Below, one piece after another: positions 22,805-29,573 of a stretch of 64,000 nucleotides of DNA. Source of the DNA: Phycisphaerales bacterium UBA7812 (GTDB lineage: Bacteria > Planctomycetota > Phycisphaerae > Phycisphaerales > UBA1924). Numbering within the stretch: position 1 is the stretch's first letter; the number at the start of each line of letters is the position of its first letter. The stretch spans positions 22,440 through 86,439 of the forward strand of contig DLBY01000030.1 of assembly GCA_002480345.1 (NCBI GenBank), read 5' to 3'. The notes below the pieces were generated by a model. The model worked only from the letters and a program-made list of their open reading frames with translations. It had not been told where the DNA came from and did no database searches. Position numbers and translations under genes: made by a program.

Positions 22805-24562
22805 ATGATTGTGAAAATCCTCTGCCTGGTGCTGGTTCTGGCGATCACCTGGGTGTGGCTGAACCGCGGGTTCTTCAACGCGTTCATCCACATGCTGTGC
22901 ACGATCGCGGCGGGTGCGATCGCGTTCGCGTTCTGGGAGCCCTTCGCCTATCTGATCATGGGTTTCTCGCCCGACAGCGGGTTCCTGTCGTTCCTCGCCT
23001 ACATCGCGTGGGGCGCGGCGCTGCTCGTCCCGTTCGCGTTGGCGCTCATCGTCTTGCGATTCGCGACCGACGCGTTCCTGAAGAACAAGGTCAGCCCGAT
23101 CGGGGCGGTCGACTATCTGGGCGGCGCGATCTGCGGCGGCATCACCGCGATGATCACCGTCGGCATGCTGTTCATCGGGTACGGCTTCATGCCAGGCTCG
23201 GGCGGCGTGCGGCCCGTGGACTATTCCGCGGAGAGCGCGGGCATCGGATCGCTGCGTCGCGCGGGCGGGCTGTGGATCCCCGCGGAGAAGTTCACCGCGG
23301 CGTTCTACGGGCAGCTGTCCACGACCTCGCTGAGCACGGGCGAGCCGCTCGCGGAGTATTACCCCGATCTGGACATCACCGGATACGCGATCAACATCAG
23401 CGAAGCGGGCGGCAAGGCCCAGCCTTCTGTTCCCTATGACGCGATATCGATCAAGAAGACCTATTTCGTCGGCTCCCCGAACGGTTCACCCACCCGCGAA
23501 CTCCTGGTCGAGAATGCGCAGCCGGACGCGTTCGTGCAGCAGTACCAGGATCTCTCGGGCGAATCGGTGAGCACCGGTCGCCTGTTCGGGGTCGTCGTCG
23601 AGTTCGGCGAGCAGGCGAAGGAGCAGAACGGCCAGGTCATCATGGGCAACGGGCAGGCCCGCCTCCTCATGACCGGGCCCGATGGGAGCGAGGTCGCCCA
23701 TCCCGTGGCGATCATCTCGCAGGCCCGGTCGTCGGACGCCGAGTTGTACGGCCGGTTCATGTACGACAGTGAGGAACTGTTCGTCGCTTCGGTCGGCGGC
23801 GCGAGCCGAGCGACCATGGGCTTCGAGTTCGTCGTTCCGCAGGGATACGAGCCCGAGGCGATCGTCATCAAGAACACCCGGGTGATGCTCGACGAGACCG
23901 AGCAGAACTTCTCGGATCCGACCGCCCGGTTCGCGGCGTTGAACTCCGGCTCGCTCGTCGGAGGGTCCGCGGTGACGGATCTCGACCTCGACGATGTTTC
24001 AACCGTCGAGGTCGATCCGAACGCGGGGTTCCGCTCTCTCCGGCCGATCATCGTCTCGGAGCGGATCGGCTACAGCTTCGAGGTCCGCCAGAAGGGCTCG
24101 CTCGAGCTCAACGAGGAAAACGCGATCCTCCGGGGATCGCAGCAATTCAACCCGGGCGACCTGGACGCCCGCGGCCTCAACCAGAAGGTCACCGTTGACA
24201 GCTTCGCGACGGCGCCCGATGTGCAGATCGTCCGCGTGAATGTCAGCCGGGAGAGCCCCGCGAGCCTGCTGGGTCCCGCCGGTCGGCTCGCGAGCCGGGT
24301 GCTGCCGCCGCAGCTCATCGACACGAACAACCAGGCCTATCCCGCGGTGGGCTTCATCTACGAGGACAACAGCATCGTCGAGATCTCCTACGACCCCGCG
24401 AGTTCCATCCGCGGCCTCCAGCAGGTGCCGACGGTCAGCTCGTCGCGGAGTGATCAGAAGCTCGAGCTCGTGTTCCGGGTCTCCAAGGGCGTCGATATCC
24501 GCTACTTCTCGGTCGGCGGCAAGGTGATCGCGGAGTTCGATCCCCCGGTCGAGGTGCAGTGA
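22805..24562 (+). CDS. CvpA-like N-terminal membrane domain protein with a large uncharacterised C-terminal domain
   Basis: ATG start. Four hydrophobic helices fall in the first ~150 aa (MIVKILCLVLVLAITWVWL..., TIAAGAIAFAFWEPFAYLIMGF, YIAWGAALLVPFALALIVL, GGAICGGITAMITVGMLFIGYGF), followed by ~420 aa with no recognised motif. Confidence 0.6.
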   Translation: MIVKILCLVLVLAITWVWLNRGFFNAFIHMLCTIAAGAIAFAFWEPFAYLIMGFSPDSGFLSFLAYIAWGAALLVPFALALIVLRFATDAFLKNKVSPIGAVDYLGGAICGGITAMITVGMLFIGYGFMPGSGGVRPVDYSAESAGIGSLRRAGGLWIPAEKFTAAFYGQLSTTSLSTGEPLAEYYPDLDITGYAINISEAGGKAQPSVPYDAISIKKTYFVGSPNGSPTRELLVENAQPDAFVQQYQDLSGESVSTGRLFGVVVEFGEQAKEQNGQVIMGNGQARLLMTGPDGSEVAHPVAIISQARSSDAELYGRFMYDSEELFVASVGGASRATMGFEFVVPQGYEPEAIVIKNTRVMLDETEQNFSDPTARFAALNSGSLVGGSAVTDLDLDDVSTVEVDPNAGFRSLRPIIVSERIGYSFEVRQKGSLELNEENAILRGSQQFNPGDLDARGLNQKVTVDSFATAPDVQIVRVNVSRESPASLLGPAGRLASRVLPPQLIDTNNQAYPAVGFIYEDNSIVEISYDPASSIRGLQQVPTVSSSRSDQKLELVFRVSKGVDIRYFSVGGKVIAEFDPPVEVQ

Positions 24563-24618
24563 ACCACGCTCCGCGGCGCGGGTGAGCGCGCGGACCAAAG
24601 AGCCCTGCCGCTTGCACG

Positions 24619-24650
24619 AAAAAACCCCGGGGGTTGCCCCGGGGTTTTTC
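24619..24650. terminator. Bidirectional intrinsic terminator between the pilT-like operon and rplI
   Basis: AAAAACCCCGGGG-GTTG-CCCCGGGGTTTTT. The arms are perfect, with an A-run on one side and a T-run on the other. Confidence 0.85.
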
Positions 24651-24683
24651 ATTGCTGCTGCGACCGGTCCGATCCGTTCGGGC

Positions 24684-25247
24684 TTACTCCGCCGCGGCGG
24701 GTTCGCTTTCGGTCTTCTCGGCGGACTTGGGCTTCTCGATCAGGTTGCCCTCGTTGTCGAACTCCATTTCCTCGCGCTCGGTGTCAAGAGTGCGGTCCGC
24801 GACAACCCAGAGCTTGATGGTCGCCTCGAGGTCGGTGTCGAACTTGACGAGCACCTCGTAGGTGTCGACTCGCTTGATGGTCTGCGCCAGCCGCACCTCG
24901 CGGGCCTTGACCGCGAAGCCCAGCTCCGTGAGCGCCTCCGCGATGTCGTGCTGGGTGACCGAGCCGTACAGGTGGCCCTGATCGTTGCACGAGCGGGTGA
25001 GGGTGAGCTCGAGGCCCTCGAGCTTGCCGATGAGCTCCTCACGCTTCGCGCGGAGGGCGGCGAGGTCCTTCTCCGCTTGGGCCCGCTTCTCGGCGAGCTG
25101 GGCGAGGATCTCGTCGCTGGGCTCGGTCGCGAGGTCGCGCGGGAGAAGGTAGTTGCGGGCGTAGCCGATGCGGACATTGACCACATCGCCGACGATCCCG
25201 AGGTTGTCGACATTCTCGGTGAGCAGGAGCTTGATGGACTTGGCCAC
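24684..25247 (-). CDS. rplI: 50S ribosomal protein L9 (with acidic C-terminal extension)
   Basis: GTG at 25247 preceded by AAGGAGG. N-terminus KLLLTENVDNLGIVGDVVNVRIGYARNYLLPR. Confidence 0.9.
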   Translation of the reverse strand: MAKSIKLLLTENVDNLGIVGDVVNVRIGYARNYLLPRDLATEPSDEILAQLAEKRAQAEKDLAALRAKREELIGKLEGLELTLTRSCNDQGHLYGSVTQHDIAEALTELGFAVKAREVRLAQTIKRVDTYEVLVKFDTDLEATIKLWVVADRTLDTEREEMEFDNEGNLIEKPKSAEKTESEPAAAE

Positions 25248-25428
25248 GGTGGGCCTCCTTTCGCTGTCCTCCCGGCCCTGGAGGGGGCGGGGAGTTGAGG
25301 AGCCGATCAGCCTCGGCCCCAACGGCATGATGGGTGCGGGGAAGTGCCCGCGGGAGCCGAGTTTAGGCGGGGTTGGGGGTGGGATTCTCGGTTGGGGCTG
25401 GTGAAATTGGGGGAGTAGGCACTGGGCA

Positions 25429-25938
25429 TTAGGGGGAGGCAGTATCATTCGGAGGCTTCATCGATTTGACCCATTCAGTGGTGAATTTGGAGCCGGCTTC
25501 ATACACAATCAAGGAACCGTCATAGACCACCCAAATCTGATCTGAAAATCCGATATATTCTTCGAAATTGTGTGCAAAGAAATGGCCGCAGTATCCCATG
25601 CCACTTAGCGGGTACCCGGGCAACTGATACTCGTCATTGTTTAAATAGAGTTCGTTGAACGCACTGACGAGCCCTTGCACCCGCTCTCGAAATGCGTGGA
25701 ACGCAGAGGTATTCACGTCCTCATGGAACGACAGATAGTCTCGATTGGATCCCGCCAAACGCCAGCCACCGGCGTAGGCCCTCACAACGGAGTTCGGGTC
25801 TTTCATATTGACGGTCTCGCCGGTTATCCCACCCAGCGGATGACCCCAATGCTGCTTGAAAGCCTGTTGGAGTTCTCCGTCGTACCCCGAAAGGTGTGGC
25901 GTATGAAGCCAGCCATCGACTATGAGATATGACGACAT
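25429..25938 (-). CDS. Hypothetical protein; compositionally foreign low-GC ORF between ssb and rplI
   Basis: The 169-aa ORF spans the whole low-GC patch. Hand counts give 23/60 G+C for nt 25501-25560 and 32/60 for nt 25561-25620. A/T-ending codons (tat, ata, cat, aat, tta, aaa, ttt) are common, unlike the neighbouring genes. No signal peptide and no recognised motif. Confidence 0.7.
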   Translation of the reverse strand: MSSYLIVDGWLHTPHLSGYDGELQQAFKQHWGHPLGGITGETVNMKDPNSVVRAYAGGWRLAGSNRDYLSFHEDVNTSAFHAFRERVQGLVSAFNELYLNNDEYQLPGYPLSGMGYCGHFFAHNFEEYIGFSDQIWVVYDGSLIVYEAGSKFTTEWVKSMKPPNDTASP

Positions 25939-25950
25939 TGTTCTGTCCGA

Positions 25951-26454
25951 TCAGAACGGGATGTCGTCGGCGTCGATCGGAGTACCGCCGCCCCCGCCGC
26001 CGTAGTCACCACCGCCGCCTCCGCCGCCCTGGGAGTAGCCGCCTCCCCCACCGCCGCCGCCGGCGTTGGCGTAGGAGCCTCCGCCGCCGCCGCGGTTGCC
26101 GCCCCCGCCTCCGCCGCCCTGGCCCGAGTCGATGAACTGGAAGTTCTCGACGACGACGCGGAGTTTGGACTGCTTGGACCCGTCCTTGCCCTCCCACTGG
26201 TCGAGCTTGAGGCGGCCCTCGATGAAGACGGGGCGGCCCTTGGAGAGGTACTGGCTCATGACTTCGGCCGTGCGGCCCCAGGCCTCGCAGTCGACGAAGG
26301 TCGTTTCCTCGCGCTGCTCGCCCGACGAGGTCTTGTAGCGACGCCCCGTCGCGAGCCCGATATTGGCGACCGCCTGATTGCCCGAAGTGTGGCGCAGCTC
26401 GACATCCCGCGTCAGCCGCCCCATGAGAAGAACCTTGTTGTAATCACCCGCCAT
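25951..26454 (-). CDS. ssb: Single-stranded DNA-binding protein
   Basis: OB fold NKVLLMGRLTRDVELRHT...TTFVDCEAWGRTAEV, Gly-rich linker and C-terminal acidic tip DADDIPF. Confidence 0.95.
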   Translation of the reverse strand: MAGDYNKVLLMGRLTRDVELRHTSGNQAVANIGLATGRRYKTSSGEQREETTFVDCEAWGRTAEVMSQYLSKGRPVFIEGRLKLDQWEGKDGSKQSKLRVVVENFQFIDSGQGGGGGGGNRGGGGGSYANAGGGGGGGGYSQGGGGGGGDYGGGGGGTPIDADDIPF

Positions 26455-26588
26455 GGTGGAACGCTCCTTACCGGTCCGCGCGACGCGCCGGATTCCCCGG
26501 CCGCCCCGAACCGTACATGATCCTAGCAGAAGGAGCCGGGACTTCGCCCGGCTCCTCTCGATTCTACCGATTTTCGGACCCGGTGTGA

Positions 26589-27107
26589 TCAGTCCTCGTC
26601 GGACGAATCCCCGTCGTCGTCATCGGAGGCGTCCGAATCCGCGGCGCTCTCGTCGCTCGCCGACGCCTCCTCCTCGGGCTCCGGCGCGCCGAGACGGGCG
26701 CCGCTCTTCTTTTCGTTCTCGCCCGCGGCGGCCTTCTCGGCACGCAACTGGGCCTCGGCCGCGAGCCCGTCGCGGTCGTCGGCGGCGCGTGCCTGGTCCT
26801 CGCTCATGTGGTCGGCGCGGATGGTCATGAGGCGCATGATGTGCTCCGAGAGGTTGCACTCGCGCTCGATCCGCTCGATGCCCTCCGGGGGGCACGCGAT
26901 GTAGGCGAGGAGATAGACCCCCCGCTTCTGCTTCTCGATCTCGTAGGCGAGGCGACGCTCGTCCCACTTCTTGAGCGCGAGGATCTCCGCGCCGCCCTTG
27001 CCCAGGATCTCGCCGATGTGCTCGACGACGGCGTGCAGATTCGCTGCCTCACCCTGGCTGATGAGGAACATGCATTCGTAGATGCGGGTCTCTGTTGCGG
27101 TGGCCAT
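26589..27107 (-). CDS. rpsF: 30S ribosomal protein S6 with a long acidic C-terminal tail
   Basis: ATG at 27107 with GGAG 8 nt upstream. Motif YECMFLISQ...KKWDERRLAYEIEKQKRGVYLL. Tail ...EEEASASDESAADSDASDDDDGDSSDED. Confidence 0.9.
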   Translation of the reverse strand: MATATETRIYECMFLISQGEAANLHAVVEHIGEILGKGGAEILALKKWDERRLAYEIEKQKRGVYLLAYIACPPEGIERIERECNLSEHIMRLMTIRADHMSEDQARAADDRDGLAAEAQLRAEKAAAGENEKKSGARLGAPEPEEEASASDESAADSDASDDDDGDSSDED

Positions 27108-27161
27108 GGTCAACTCCAATCTCTGTTGCGGTGCGTTGCTTTGTGATGGTCGTGTGCCGGA

Positions 27162-27827
27162 TCAGGCGGTCCATCCCGGATGAACATCCGAGGGCGGTCC
27201 GCCGTCCTCGCCCGGGCGCTGGTCCGGATGCGTCTCGGGCTCGGGCGTCTTTGACGAGAGACGCTCGTTGAACGCGTTCATCGCCGCGTCCACGCCCTCG
27301 CCCAGAAGAGTCTCGACCGCTCTCGCGGCCTGAACGATCGAGGACTCGAACGCGGGCCACTCACCTTCCGTGACCCGGCTGAGCACCCAATCCGCCTGAT
27401 TCATGAGCTTCGGCTTCTCGCCGATGCCGACGCGGACGCGTGGGTAATCCGCGCCGCCCAGCACCCGGTCGATGTCCTTGAGCCCGTTGTGCCCCGCGGT
27501 CCCCCCCTTGGCGCGCACGCGGATGTGCCCGATAGGAAATGCGAGTTCATCGACCACCACGACGAGGTCCGCCGAAGGGTCGAGCTTGTAGAAGCGCACG
27601 GCCTCGCCCACGGATTGTCCCGAGCGGTTCATGTAGGTCGTGGGCTTCATGAGCAGGCACTTCTCGCCCGCGACGCGCGCCTCGACGCACGCCGCGTTGA
27701 ATCGGCTCTTGGGCGTCTCGCCGACCGCGTGGTCGCGAGCGAGCCGGTCCACGACAAGGAACCCGGCGTTGTGCCGGGTCTTGTCGTACTGGGGACCGGG
27801 GTTGCCAAGGCCGACAACGAGTTTCAC
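27162..27827 (-). CDS. pth: Peptidyl-tRNA hydrolase
   Basis: MKLVVGLGNPGPQYDKTRHNAGF, and GGTAGHNGLKDI. GTG start. Carries a Pro-rich C-terminal extension of about 35 aa. Confidence 0.9.
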   Translation of the reverse strand: MKLVVGLGNPGPQYDKTRHNAGFLVVDRLARDHAVGETPKSRFNAACVEARVAGEKCLLMKPTTYMNRSGQSVGEAVRFYKLDPSADLVVVVDELAFPIGHIRVRAKGGTAGHNGLKDIDRVLGGADYPRVRVGIGEKPKLMNQADWVLSRVTEGEWPAFESSIVQAARAVETLLGEGVDAAMNAFNERLSSKTPEPETHPDQRPGEDGGPPSDVHPGWTA

Positions 27828-27855
27828 GGGCTCACTCCCGAGTCGGGCGGGACGA

Positions 27856-28509
27856 TCAGTCCTCGCCTTCCTCGTCCTTCTTCTCGGTGATGACTTCCGG
27901 TGCCGCCTGGGCCTCCGCCTCGGCGGACTCGTCGGTCTCCTCTTCCAGTTCCTTCTGCTGGATGAGGTTCGCGACGACCGTGTCGGGATCGGTCAGCAGG
28001 ACCATCGTGTCCTTGGGCAGCTTGACCTCGCCCGCGTGGATCACATCACCGATGTCCATGTGGGAGACATCGACATCGATCTCTTCCGGGAGGTTGGTCA
28101 CGGTGCACTCGAGCTCGAGCTCGGTGATCGGGGTGAGAATCGAGGTGCGGGCCCGCTTCAGACCGGGCGCCTCGCCCACGAGACGGAGATGCACGCGGAC
28201 ATGCACCCGCTCGTCGAGGTCCACGCGAGCGAGGTCGCAGTGGACCACATTCGTGCCCAGATAATCGAACTGGAGGTCGCGGAGGAGCACCGTCTCGGTC
28301 TCCCCACCCTCGATGTTGAGCGTGTAGACCCGCTCGCCGTCCTCGATCAGCCGGAGGCTCTCCTTCGCGTCCAGCGTGATGGAGACAGGGTCCTGGCCGT
28401 GCCCGTACACCACGGCGGGCAGCCCGCCCTGCTCACGGATCCGGCGGCTGTACCGCGAGCCCGTCCGCTCGCGCTTCTTTGCCTGCAGCACAGGGGTTTC
28501 GTCGCTCAT
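27856..28509 (-). CDS. rplY: 50S ribosomal protein L25/general stress protein Ctc
   Basis: ATG at 28509. Motif ERTGSRYSRRIREQGGLPAVVYGHG and an acidic C-terminal tail. Confidence 0.85.
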   Translation of the reverse strand: MSDETPVLQAKKRERTGSRYSRRIREQGGLPAVVYGHGQDPVSITLDAKESLRLIEDGERVYTLNIEGGETETVLLRDLQFDYLGTNVVHCDLARVDLDERVHVRVHLRLVGEAPGLKRARTSILTPITELELECTVTNLPEEIDVDVSHMDIGDVIHAGEVKLPKDTMVLLTDPDTVVANLIQQKELEEETDESAEAEAQAAPEVITEKKDEEGED

Positions 28510-28595
28510 GATTCGGTTCCTTTCTCTTGCGATTCTCTCGTCTTTGGTGTTCGGAATTCGGAGTTCGGGCCGGCATCGCCGGCCCATCCGTGTTC

Positions 28596-29573
28596 TCAGC
28601 GTTTCATCTCCGCGCGTCGGAAGATCGCGCTCACCGAGCGGTCCTCGTGGATCCGCCGGATCGCATCGCCCAGGAGCGGGCCCACACTCAGTTCCACGAG
28701 CTTGTCACCGAGGGCCCGCTTCTTGTCGTCGGCAAGCGGGATCGTATCGGTCACGATGACCTTGGAGATCGGGGCGTCCGCGAGCCGCTCGGCACCGAGC
28801 CCGGCGAGAACGGGGTGCGTCGCCGCGACGATCACGCCCTTTGCGCCCTCGTCCATAACGAGCTGCGCCGCCTCGCAGACGGTGCCGCCCGTCGAGATCA
28901 TGTCATCGAACATGAGCACCGTCTTGCCCGCGACATCACCGATCAGGTTGCCCGTCTTGACTTCGGACCCACTCAGGCGCTGCTTGTTGATGATCGCCAG
29001 CCCGCCCCTGAGTTCCTGCGCCAGCCCCTCCGCGACCTTGACATTCCCGACATCCGGGCTCACGAGGCACAGGTCGCCCAGCTTGTCGCGGATCGATTCA
29101 AAGTAGTCGAGGAAGACCTCGGTCGCGGACAGGTGGTCCAGCGGAAGATCGAAGAACCCCTGGATCTGCGCCGCGTGCAGATCGATCGTGATCACCCGGT
29201 CCGCGCCGCTCGCGGTGATCATGTTCGCGACCAGCTTCGCGGTGATGGGCGTACGCCCCTCGCTCTTGCGGTCCTGCCGCGCGTAGCCGTAGTACGGGAT
29301 CACAAGAGTCATCCGCCTCGCCGACGCGCGGCGCAGGCAGTCGATGAAGATCAGCAACTCCATCAGGTTGTCGTTCACCGGTGCGCAGGTGGAGCTGATG
29401 ACGAAACAATCCCGCCCGCGAACATCCTCCTCGAGCTTGACGAGGAGTTCCCCGTCCGGGAAGACCTGGGTGCGCGCATCGCCCAGGGGAAGGCCCATGT
29501 GGCGGCACACCTTTTCGGCCAGCGGCTTGCTGTTCCGCCCCGCGAAGATCCGCATCCCGCGTGATTCGCCCAT
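28596..29573 (-). CDS. prs: Ribose-phosphate pyrophosphokinase
   Basis: Motifs: RIFAGRNSKPLAEKV, YYGYARQDRK, DLHAAQIQGFF, MFDDMISTGGT. The ATG lies 2 nt after the upstream gene's stop. Confidence 0.92.
   Translation of the reverse strand: MGESRGMRIFAGRNSKPLAEKVCRHMGLPLGDARTQVFPDGELLVKLEEDVRGRDCFVISSTCAPVNDNLMELLIFIDCLRRASARRMTLVIPYYGYARQDRKSEGRTPITAKLVANMITASGADRVITIDLHAAQIQGFFDLPLDHLSATEVFLDYFESIRDKLGDLCLVSPDVGNVKVAEGLAQELRGGLAIINKQRLSGSEVKTGNLIGDVAGKTVLMFDDMISTGGTVCEAAQLVMDEGAKGVIVAATHPVLAGLGAERLADAPISKVIVTDTIPLADDKKRALGDKLVELSVGPLLGDAIRRIHEDRSVSAIFRRAEMKR

What the first reader, a model, noticed from the sequence alone, without database searches (positions are those of the whole stretch)
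25429..25938. Compositionally foreign ORF sitting in the rpsR slot of the rpsF-ssb-rplI ribosomal operon
On the minus strand the order is rpsF (26589-27107), ssb (25951-26454), this 169-aa ORF (25429-25938), then rplI (24684-25247). In the classic arrangement (E. coli rpsF-priB-rpsR-rplI; rpsF-ssb-rpsR in many other bacteria) the gene after ssb/priB is rpsR (S18). No S18-like ORF exists anywhere in this window. The ORF starts only 12 nt after the ssb stop, so it is probably co-transcribed with highly expressed genes. Its composition differs sharply from the surrounding genome. Hand counts give 23/60 G+C for nt 25501-25560 and 32/60 for nt 25561-25620, whereas the flanks are visibly well above 60 percent. 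It uses many A/T-ending codons that are rare in the neighbours. The protein (MSSYLIVDGWLHTPHLSGYDG...YCGHFFAHNFEEYIGFSDQIWVVYDGSLIVYEAGSKF...) has no signal peptide, no TM helix and no motif I recognise. This looks like a recent horizontal insertion into, or replacement within, a core translation operon, which is an unusual landing site.
Basis: partly seen in the sequence, partly recalled or inferred. Interest (0 to 1): 0.65.

Follow-up and report, generated by a model that had tools for sequence, protein, structure and literature searches.

The report
Fast-evolving orphan gene after ssb
The AT-rich gene between ssb and the ribosomal protein L9 gene is real. It did not replace the S18 gene and did not arrive recently: it is an old orphan protein family of unknown function, confined to one small clade.

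Summary
ORF X (25429-25938, minus strand, 169 aa) starts 12 nt after ssb. It is the lowest-GC 510-bp stretch in the window (0.516 vs 0.667) and has the lowest GC3 (0.60 vs about 0.84-0.92). Its codon-adaptation index is 0.37, against 0.72 for the reference genes.

In all 68 Phycisphaerales species with linked ssb and rplI there is no rpsR between them (median gap about 200 bp), so nothing was replaced. X is not recent either. Only three other protein clusters among about 15 billion proteins are homologous (24-37% identity to X). All lie in the same rpsF-ssb-X-rplI position and all have the same low GC3 (0.59-0.68), although their third codon positions are saturated. Neighbouring proteins are 79-97% identical where X is 30%. 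The low GC is therefore a steady state of this locus.

rplI has its own conserved promoter-like box and leader hairpin, so X sits at a seam between transcription units. Unrelated genes occupy that seam in other relatives.

X is predicted to be an acidic, Trp-rich, ferredoxin-like alpha+beta protein. It matches no family library and has no significant structural neighbour. Only core residues are conserved. Function is unknown; a non-enzymatic binding role is my inference.

The parts
25429..25938 (-). ORF X: 169-aa acidic (pI 5.2), Trp-rich cytoplasmic protein and founding member of a four-cluster orphan family. GC 0.516, GC3 0.60.
25939..25950 (-). 12-nt ssb-X junction with no Shine-Dalgarno motif. 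L082 and L087 have 11-nt junctions. This suggests translational coupling or re-initiation after ssb.
25951..26454 (-). ssb (SSB with a Gly-rich linker and DDIPF tail), the upstream cistron.
   Evidence: PF00436, E 2e-32.
26589..27107 (-). rpsF (S6), first ribosomal gene of the L25-pth-rpsF-ssb cluster.
25369..25428 (-). C-rich, G-poor block directly after the X stop (C 32, G 6 of 60). The X-rplI spacer that contains it is 93% identical among WIN, L084 and L087. The block is recognisable in L082 and absent from X-less relatives. It travels with X.
25359..25368 (-). GCCTAAACTC: a -10-like TAnnnT box conserved upstream of rplI in most aligned Phycisphaerales loci. Putative promoter of rplI itself.
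25293..25323 (-). rplI leader hairpin GUUGGGGCCG...CGGCUCCUCAACU. Of its 7 pairs, 3 show compensatory changes across 68 sequences.
25254..25270 (-). AGGACAGCGAAAGGAGG, a near-invariant leader block that contains the rplI Shine-Dalgarno sequence.
24684..25247 (-). rplI (L9), GTG start.
24623..24635 (-). Intrinsic terminator hairpin with a T-run after rplI.

Best explanation
X is a genuine protein-coding gene and the founding member of a tiny orphan family.

Origin (inferred). The family was gained once by the ancestor of a small uncultured Phycisphaerales clade. It was inserted just after the ssb stop codon, upstream of rplI's own promoter-like box and leader. That places it at the seam between the rpsF-ssb unit and rplI, not in a vacated rpsR position.

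Expression (inferred). X is most likely expressed as the last cistron of the rpsF-ssb transcript by coupling to ssb translation. Its rare-codon, low-GC coding sequence should keep its output below that of SSB.

Evolution (shown). X has stayed in place while diverging at roughly the neutral rate. Its low GC3 is a locus-specific equilibrium, not a trace of recent arrival.

Protein. X is predicted to be a soluble, acidic, ferredoxin-like alpha+beta domain in which only core residues are conserved. I infer a non-enzymatic binding role. Its partner could be a cellular protein such as SSB, or a rapidly changing antagonist such as a phage protein.
For: Real gene:
- Intact, full-length, alignable ORFs occur in four lineages.
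- dN/dS is 0.32 for the only unsaturated pair, L084 and L087.
- AF2 gave pLDDT 81 and pTM 0.79, and a second homologue gave the same topology.

Orphan family:
- Only 4 clusters were found among 1.84 billion representatives.
- A profile search added nothing.
- There were no hits in phage, plasmid, viral-contig or metagenome scans.

Same position in every carrier:
- All homologues lie in rpsF-ssb-X-rplI.

No rpsR in the slot across the order:
- 68 of 68 linked ssb-rplI loci lack it.

Single gain:
- A neighbour-joining tree of S6 plus SSB puts the four carriers in one clade that excludes X-less taxa, in 27 of 40 bootstraps.

Rate:
- WIN vs L084: L25 79%, Pth 81%, S6 83%, SSB 97%, L9 90%, X 30%.
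- WIN vs L087: X dN is 0.87, while two non-ribosomal neighbours have dS of 0.82-0.83.

Equilibrium composition:
- Third-position identity between X homologues is 0.29-0.41; the random expectation is 0.26.
- Every lineage nevertheless has GC3 of 0.59-0.68, against about 0.9 in the flanks.

Seam and separate rplI unit:
- A -10-like box, a covarying hairpin and the SD block are conserved across the order, including L002 where rplI is not downstream of ssb.

Binding rather than catalysis:
- The 20 invariant columns are hydrophobic or aromatic residues, Gly, Pro, Asn or Gln. None is charged, and none is His, Cys or Ser.
Against: - No expression data exist. Co-transcription and coupling are inferred from spacing and from the lack of a terminator-like site in a simple scan. 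In L084 the gene sits 148 nt after ssb with its own SD and a TTG start.
- For L084 vs L087, X's dS (1.47) is 7-12 times that of its ribosomal-gene flanks (0.12-0.20). This could instead mean that the X alleles are older than the flanks, that is, recombination.
- The ssb tree disagrees with the S6 tree by four-point sums.
- The clade test rests on 224 alignment columns and 68% bootstrap support, and it uses ssb, which adjoins X.
- The function is entirely inferential.
Confidence: 0.7

Rival explanations
1. One reading: a recent horizontal insertion that replaced rpsR inside a core ribosomal operon.
For: The composition is strongly atypical. X is absent from 68 related species. No S18 gene is present in the window.
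Against: No relative has rpsR in this slot. Syntenic homologues at 24-37% identity to X show that the gene is old. Synonymous sites are saturated, yet GC3 is equally low in every lineage. There are no flanking repeats or mobility genes, and the only nearby tRNA call is a probably spurious one about 1.2 kb away, beyond rplI and not adjacent to X.
Confidence: 0.04
2. X is a swappable cassette. Divergent alleles of X plus its C-rich tail are exchanged between related lineages by homologous recombination through the conserved ssb and rplI-leader flanks. The low GC reflects a separate allele pool or diversifying/balancing selection.
For: The variable block has sharp edges, the ssb stop and the last few codons of X, and is bracketed by DNA that is 87-93% identical. 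For L084 vs L087, X has dN 0.47 and dS 1.47 while the flanks have dS of 0.12-0.20. The ssb topology conflicts with S6. WIN's X is closer to L082's (37%) than to L084's (30%), although S6 makes L082 the outgroup.
Against: No copy of the family was found outside this slot in about 15 billion proteins, phages, plasmids or viral contigs. The unrooted X tree matches the S6 tree by four-point sums. Strong GC3 constraint depresses dS in the ribosomal-gene flanks, so the excess may be an artefact. The carriers form one clade.
Confidence: 0.15
3. X is an SSB or replication accessory factor. It is made stoichiometrically coupled to SSB and binds SSB or ssDNA intermediates.
For: It lies directly after ssb in all four lineages, with an 11-12 nt junction in three of them. 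E. coli's rpsF operon similarly holds the replication gene priB (PMC3854524).
Against: The protein is acidic. X diverges at a near-neutral rate while SSB is 90-97% conserved, which is unusual for a partner of a conserved protein. X is absent from 68 related species with similar SSBs.
Confidence: 0.12
4. X is a spurious ORF in a non-coding, AT-richer spacer.
For: It matches no family, its codon usage is poor, and it lacks a Shine-Dalgarno sequence.
Against: A stop-free 169-codon frame has a chance of about 5e-4 at this composition (my estimate). The frame is kept in four lineages with in-frame indels only, dN/dS of 0.32 and confident fold predictions.
Confidence: 0.02

Closest known systems
Classic rpsF operon (rpsF-priB/ssb-rpsR-rplI)
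   Same: It has the same neighbours, S6, SSB and L9. A non-ribosomal gene riding in this operon has precedent in priB and ssb (PMC3854524).
   Different: This whole order lacks rpsR at the locus. rplI carries its own promoter-like box and leader. No Rfam family, the S6:S18 leader included, matched at E <= 1 in 24000-29000.
Bacterial ORFans / taxonomically restricted genes
   Same: X is short, AT-richer than its genome, fast-evolving, and without homologues outside a narrow clade. Yu & Stoltzfus describe ORFans as shorter and AT-richer (PMC3514957).
   Different: X is not strain-specific or transient. It has been held at one syntenic position through saturation of its own synonymous sites, it sits next to highly expressed core genes, and its low GC is at equilibrium.
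Uncharacterised phage proteins and 'YubB ferredoxin-like domain' proteins in BFVD
   Same: Two independent models reproducibly hit the same entries (A0A8S5RZV6, A0A8S5U5X0, A0A6J5MH37). They share a beta-alpha-beta-beta-alpha-beta core.
   Different: All E-values exceed 1e-3, TM-scores are only 0.31-0.50, rmsd is 5-10 A and identity is 6-12%. There is no sequence-level link, and the targets have no known function.
Other occupants of the ssb-rplI seam in Phycisphaerales
   Same: They occupy the same insertion seam: a 4-oxalocrotonate tautomerase in L007, L014, L020 and L023, and a metallophosphoesterase in L051.
   Different: They are unrelated proteins (hhalign probability 0.7% for X vs the tautomerase). 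They have native GC3 of 0.79-0.93.

Membership tests
Ribosomal protein S18 (rpsR) | Sequence match to the S18 family (Pfam Ribosomal_S18 model) | tested here: not met
   X had no Pfam hit at E <= 1, and none for any family member at E <= 10. tblastn with three S18 sequences found nothing in the window or in 88 loci.
Ribosomal protein S18 (rpsR) | Small (about 75 aa), basic, rRNA-binding protein | tested here: not met
   X is 169 aa with pI 5.2; its homologues have pI 4.1-5.9.
Recently acquired genomic islet | Atypical base composition and codon usage | tested here: met
   GC 0.516 vs 0.667, GC3 0.60 vs 0.84, CAI 0.37 vs 0.72.
Recently acquired genomic islet | Absent from the closest relatives at the same locus | tested here: not met
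   The closest contigs (L084, L087; L9 88-90% identical) and L082 carry a homologue at the same position.
Recently acquired genomic islet | Mobility hallmarks: flanking direct repeats, an integrase or transposase, or an adjacent tRNA | tested here: not met
   Only short chance repeats were found. No tRNA adjoins X. The neighbours are rpsF, ssb and rplI.
Recently acquired genomic islet | A donor pool detectable elsewhere | tested here: not met
   No homologue was found outside this slot.
Anti-phage defence, toxin-antitoxin or immunity proteins | Match to a known defence or immunity model | tested here: not met
   PADLOC gave 0 hits for all five sequences.
Anti-phage defence, toxin-antitoxin or immunity proteins | An adjacent cognate toxin or effector gene | tested here: not met
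   The neighbours in every locus are ssb and rplI.
Anti-phage defence, toxin-antitoxin or immunity proteins | Rapid or diversifying evolution | tested here: inconclusive
   X's dN is about equal to its neighbours' dS, but within X dN/dS is 0.32, and four sequences are too few for site models.
Tautomerase superfamily (the other occupant of this slot) | Profile similarity and an N-terminal catalytic Pro1 | tested here: not met
   hhalign probability is 0.7%. X starts MSSY, MGHY, MGYY or MGDY, with no Pro at position 2.
YubB-like ferredoxin-like domain | Significant structural superposition | tested here: inconclusive
   The hits are reproducible but weak: TM 0.36-0.41, E 0.06-0.4. The PDB search gave nothing below E 0.086.
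SSB-interacting proteins | Physical binding of the SSB C-terminal tail | not testable with these tools
   The only evidence is adjacency, plus the lack of a conserved basic residue outside the low-confidence C-terminal tail.

The most novel reading that the evidence does not exclude
X is a fast-evolving guard, decoy or inhibitor tied to SSB, for example acting against phage factors that target SSB or ssDNA. It would be hard-wired to ssb by translational coupling at the end of a core operon, which would make it a new kind of single-gene conflict module hidden in housekeeping context. Its conserved C-rich tail would control read-through toward rplI.
Probability: 0.1. Interest if true: 0.65.

Novelty: new member of a known kind. 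Interest (0 to 1): 0.33.

Why it matters
This case shows that a sharp compositional anomaly next to core genes need not mean recent transfer. Here the low GC has persisted through complete turnover of synonymous sites. The locus is therefore a natural test of what maintains GC3 near 0.9 in GC-rich bacteria: codon selection, biased gene conversion, or something else.

The work also defines a new, structurally plausible protein family. Its strict linkage to ssb gives a concrete handle for experiments.

Finally, it corrects the expected operon layout for Phycisphaerales: rpsF-ssb, then rplI with its own leader, and no rpsR.

Tried and rejected
- Family libraries (Pfam, NCBIfam, PADLOC) for X and for all homologues gave nothing; PHROGs gave only one non-significant match, phrog_8933, E 0.24.
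- A PDB sequence-profile search gave only noise, E >= 0.49.
- Foldseek against the PDB gave a best E of 0.086 at TM 0.31, to RRM-like Cas7/Csm3 and ACT domains. I treated this as noise.
- tblastn against phages and plasmids, and scans of viral and metagenome contigs, produced no new relatives.
- I tested whether X derives from the tautomerase that fills the same slot elsewhere. It does not.
- I looked for target-site duplications or inverted repeats around X and found none.
- Rfam gave no family for the spacer or the leaders.
- A literature search for YubB, DUF1281 and Api92 was uninformative.
- SNP comparison among near-identical contigs found too few differences to use.
- I first suspected that X had diverged faster than neutral. 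That was rejected for WIN vs L087 once two non-ribosomal neighbours gave dS of 0.82-0.83. It remains open for L084 vs L087.

Full report
**1. The observation**

On the minus strand the order is L25 (27856-28587), pth (27162-27827), rpsF (26589-27107), ssb (25951-26454), ORF X (25429-25938) and rplI (24684-25247). A hairpin with a T-run terminator follows at about 24623-24635.

X begins exactly 12 nt after the ssb stop.

| Measure | X | Comparison |
|---|---|---|
| GC, 510-bp windows | 0.516 | mean 0.667, sd 0.029; only stretch below 0.58 in 64 kb |
| GC3 | 0.60 | 0.87-0.92 in ssb, rpsF, rplI; lowest of 71 candidate ORFs |
| CAI-like index | 0.37 | 0.72 +/- 0.06 in 28 reference genes |
| Rare codons | 21% | mean 6%, maximum 12% |

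No S18-like sequence is in the window.

**2. The rpsR slot is natively empty**

A scan with the L9 protein returned 80 loci, nearly all titled Phycisphaerales, Phycisphaeraceae or Planctomycetota. L9 identity to the window was at most 79%.

In 68 of these loci ssb lies upstream of rplI in the order L25-pth-rpsF-ssb-rplI. The ssb-rplI gap has a median of about 200 bp, and no locus gave an S18 hit.

rpsF operons usually contain rpsR (PMC3854524), but this order does not follow that layout. Nothing was displaced by X.

**3. X is a real gene with very few relatives, all in the same place**

An exhaustive HMMER search of 1.84 billion representatives found four clusters:

| Cluster | Identity to X (phmmer) | Loci |
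|---|---|---|
| P0001 | 99% | L001 |
| P0002 | 35% | L082, L083 |
| P0003 | 30% | L084-L086 |
| P0004 | 29% | L087 |

A profile search added none. Metagenome, viral-contig, phage and plasmid searches also added none.

The sequences align over their full length. The 20 invariant positions are spread over all predicted secondary-structure elements.

Every homologue lies between ssb and rplI in rpsF-ssb-X-rplI. The ssb-X junction is 11-12 nt in WIN, L082 and L087. In L084 it is a 148-nt spacer, with a GAAGGAG Shine-Dalgarno sequence and a TTG start.

**4. Age and rate of change**

Protein identity between the window and L084:

| Protein | Identity |
|---|---|
| L25 | 79% |
| Pth | 81% |
| S6 | 83% |
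| SSB | 97% |
| L9 | 90% |
| X | 30% |

For WIN vs L087, two non-ribosomal neighbours (a CvpA-like gene and a T2SSE ATPase gene) have dS of 0.82-0.83 and dN of 0.18-0.28. X has dN of 0.87 with saturated dS. X therefore changes at about the neutral rate.

In the one unsaturated pair, L084 vs L087, X has dN 0.47 and dS 1.47, giving a ratio of 0.32. The protein is under purifying selection on average.

In that same pair the ribosomal-gene flanks have dS of only 0.12-0.20. Strong GC3 constraint on those flanks can explain much of this excess. An older allele history, that is recombination, cannot be excluded.

A neighbour-joining tree of the S6 and SSB N-terminal domains (71 taxa, 224 columns) places the four carriers in one clade without X-less taxa, in 27 of 40 bootstraps. 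This is consistent with a single gain.

**5. Composition**

All homologues have GC of 0.53-0.57 and GC3 of 0.59-0.68. Their flanks have GC3 of 0.83-0.97.

Third-position identity between homologues is 0.29-0.41. The random expectation is 0.26. Synonymous sites have therefore turned over completely, yet each lineage sits at the same low value.

So the low GC is an equilibrium of this locus, not a relic of recent import. The cause is unknown. Candidates are:
- lack of codon selection;
- lack of GC-biased gene conversion, because the locus is too divergent to recombine;
- selection for slow translation downstream of a highly expressed gene.

These candidates are my inferences.

**6. The seam between transcription units**

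Aligning 146 nt spanning the rplI start (140 nt upstream plus the first 6 nt of the gene) from 68 sequences shows three conserved elements:
- a conserved GCCTAnnnTC box, which is -10-like (window 25359-25368);
- a hairpin GUUGGGGC..GCUCCUCAACU, with compensatory changes at three of its seven pairs;
- a near-invariant block AGGACAGCGAAAGGA that holds the Shine-Dalgarno sequence.

All three are present in L002, where rplI is not downstream of ssb. This suggests rplI is its own transcription unit, and X sits at the 3' end of the rpsF-ssb unit.

Other relatives carry unrelated genes at the same seam:
- a 4-oxalocrotonate tautomerase in L007, L014, L020 and L023;
- a metallophosphoesterase in L051;
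- unknown ORFs in L025 and L074.

The landing site is therefore permissive rather than unusual.

**7. A conserved tail**

The X-rplI spacer is 93% identical among WIN, L084 and L087. The rpsF-ssb and rplI-cvpA spacers are only 49-58% identical between WIN and those loci.

The first 60 nt after the X stop contain 32 C and 6 G. This block is recognisable in L082 and absent from X-less relatives.

It may be a Rho-utilisation-like site, the upstream part of the rplI promoter, or a binding site. This was not resolved.

**8. The protein**

AlphaFold2 gave pLDDT 81 and pTM 0.79 for X, and pLDDT 71 for P0004. Both models have the same topology: b1-a1-(a2)-b2-b3-a3-b4-b5-b6-a4. This is a ferredoxin-like core followed by a hairpin and a helix.

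Foldseek against the PDB found nothing significant. BFVD gave weak but reproducible hits to uncharacterised phage proteins and to YubB ferredoxin-like domain proteins, with TM 0.31-0.50 and E above 1e-3.

The proteins are acidic (pI 4.1-5.9) and contain 5-7 Trp. Their GRAVY values are negative, consistent with soluble proteins.

No invariant residue is charged, and none is His, Cys or Ser. That argues for a scaffold or binding protein rather than an enzyme.

**9. Verdict**

The anomaly is real, but the 'recent insertion replacing rpsR' reading is not supported. X is an old, clade-restricted, fast-evolving orphan gene parked after ssb. Its function is unknown.

My preferred mechanism is a non-enzymatic binding protein co-expressed with SSB. 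This is an inference and should be treated as such.

Noticed in passing
window 25254-25368 (-); alignment A4 of 68 loci: A conserved rplI (L9) 5' region across Phycisphaerales. It has a -10-like GCCTAnnnTC box, a hairpin GUUGGGGC..GCUCCUCAACU with compensatory changes at 3 of 7 pairs and a variable apical insert, and then a near-invariant AGGACAGCGAAAGGA block. No Rfam family matches it. It may be an undescribed L9 leader.
   Followed up: partly
L007, L014, L020, L023, L051, L025, L074 (ssb-rplI gaps): The ssb-rplI seam holds unrelated accessory genes in other species: a 4-oxalocrotonate tautomerase (PF01361), a metallophosphoesterase (PF00149), a 637-aa ORF and a 302-aa ORF without Pfam hits. 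The seam is a recurrent insertion site.
   Followed up: partly
window 25369-25428 (-): A 60-nt C-rich, G-poor block (C 32, G 6) lies directly after the X stop. It lies within a spacer that is 93% identical among carriers, although other spacers are about 50% identical. In L084 and L087 it carries a 14-nt tandem duplication (TGCCCAGTGCCT..).
   Followed up: partly
ssb in window 25951-26454 vs L082, L084, L087: By four-point dN sums, ssb groups (WIN, L084) with (L082, L087), whereas S6 groups (L084, L087) and then WIN, with L082 outside. This may be recombination within or near ssb.
   Followed up: no
window 24106-24198 (-): ARAGORN calls a 93-nt tRNA-Leu(CAG) inside the 585-aa CvpA-like ORF (22805-24562, +). 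It is probably a false positive.
   Followed up: no
window 26455-26588 and 27108-27161 (-): No S6:S18 leader motif or any other Rfam family was found around rpsF at E <= 1. A sigma-70-like promoter match (ATCACA-17-TAGAAT) lies between rpsF and ssb at 26561-26589.
   Followed up: no
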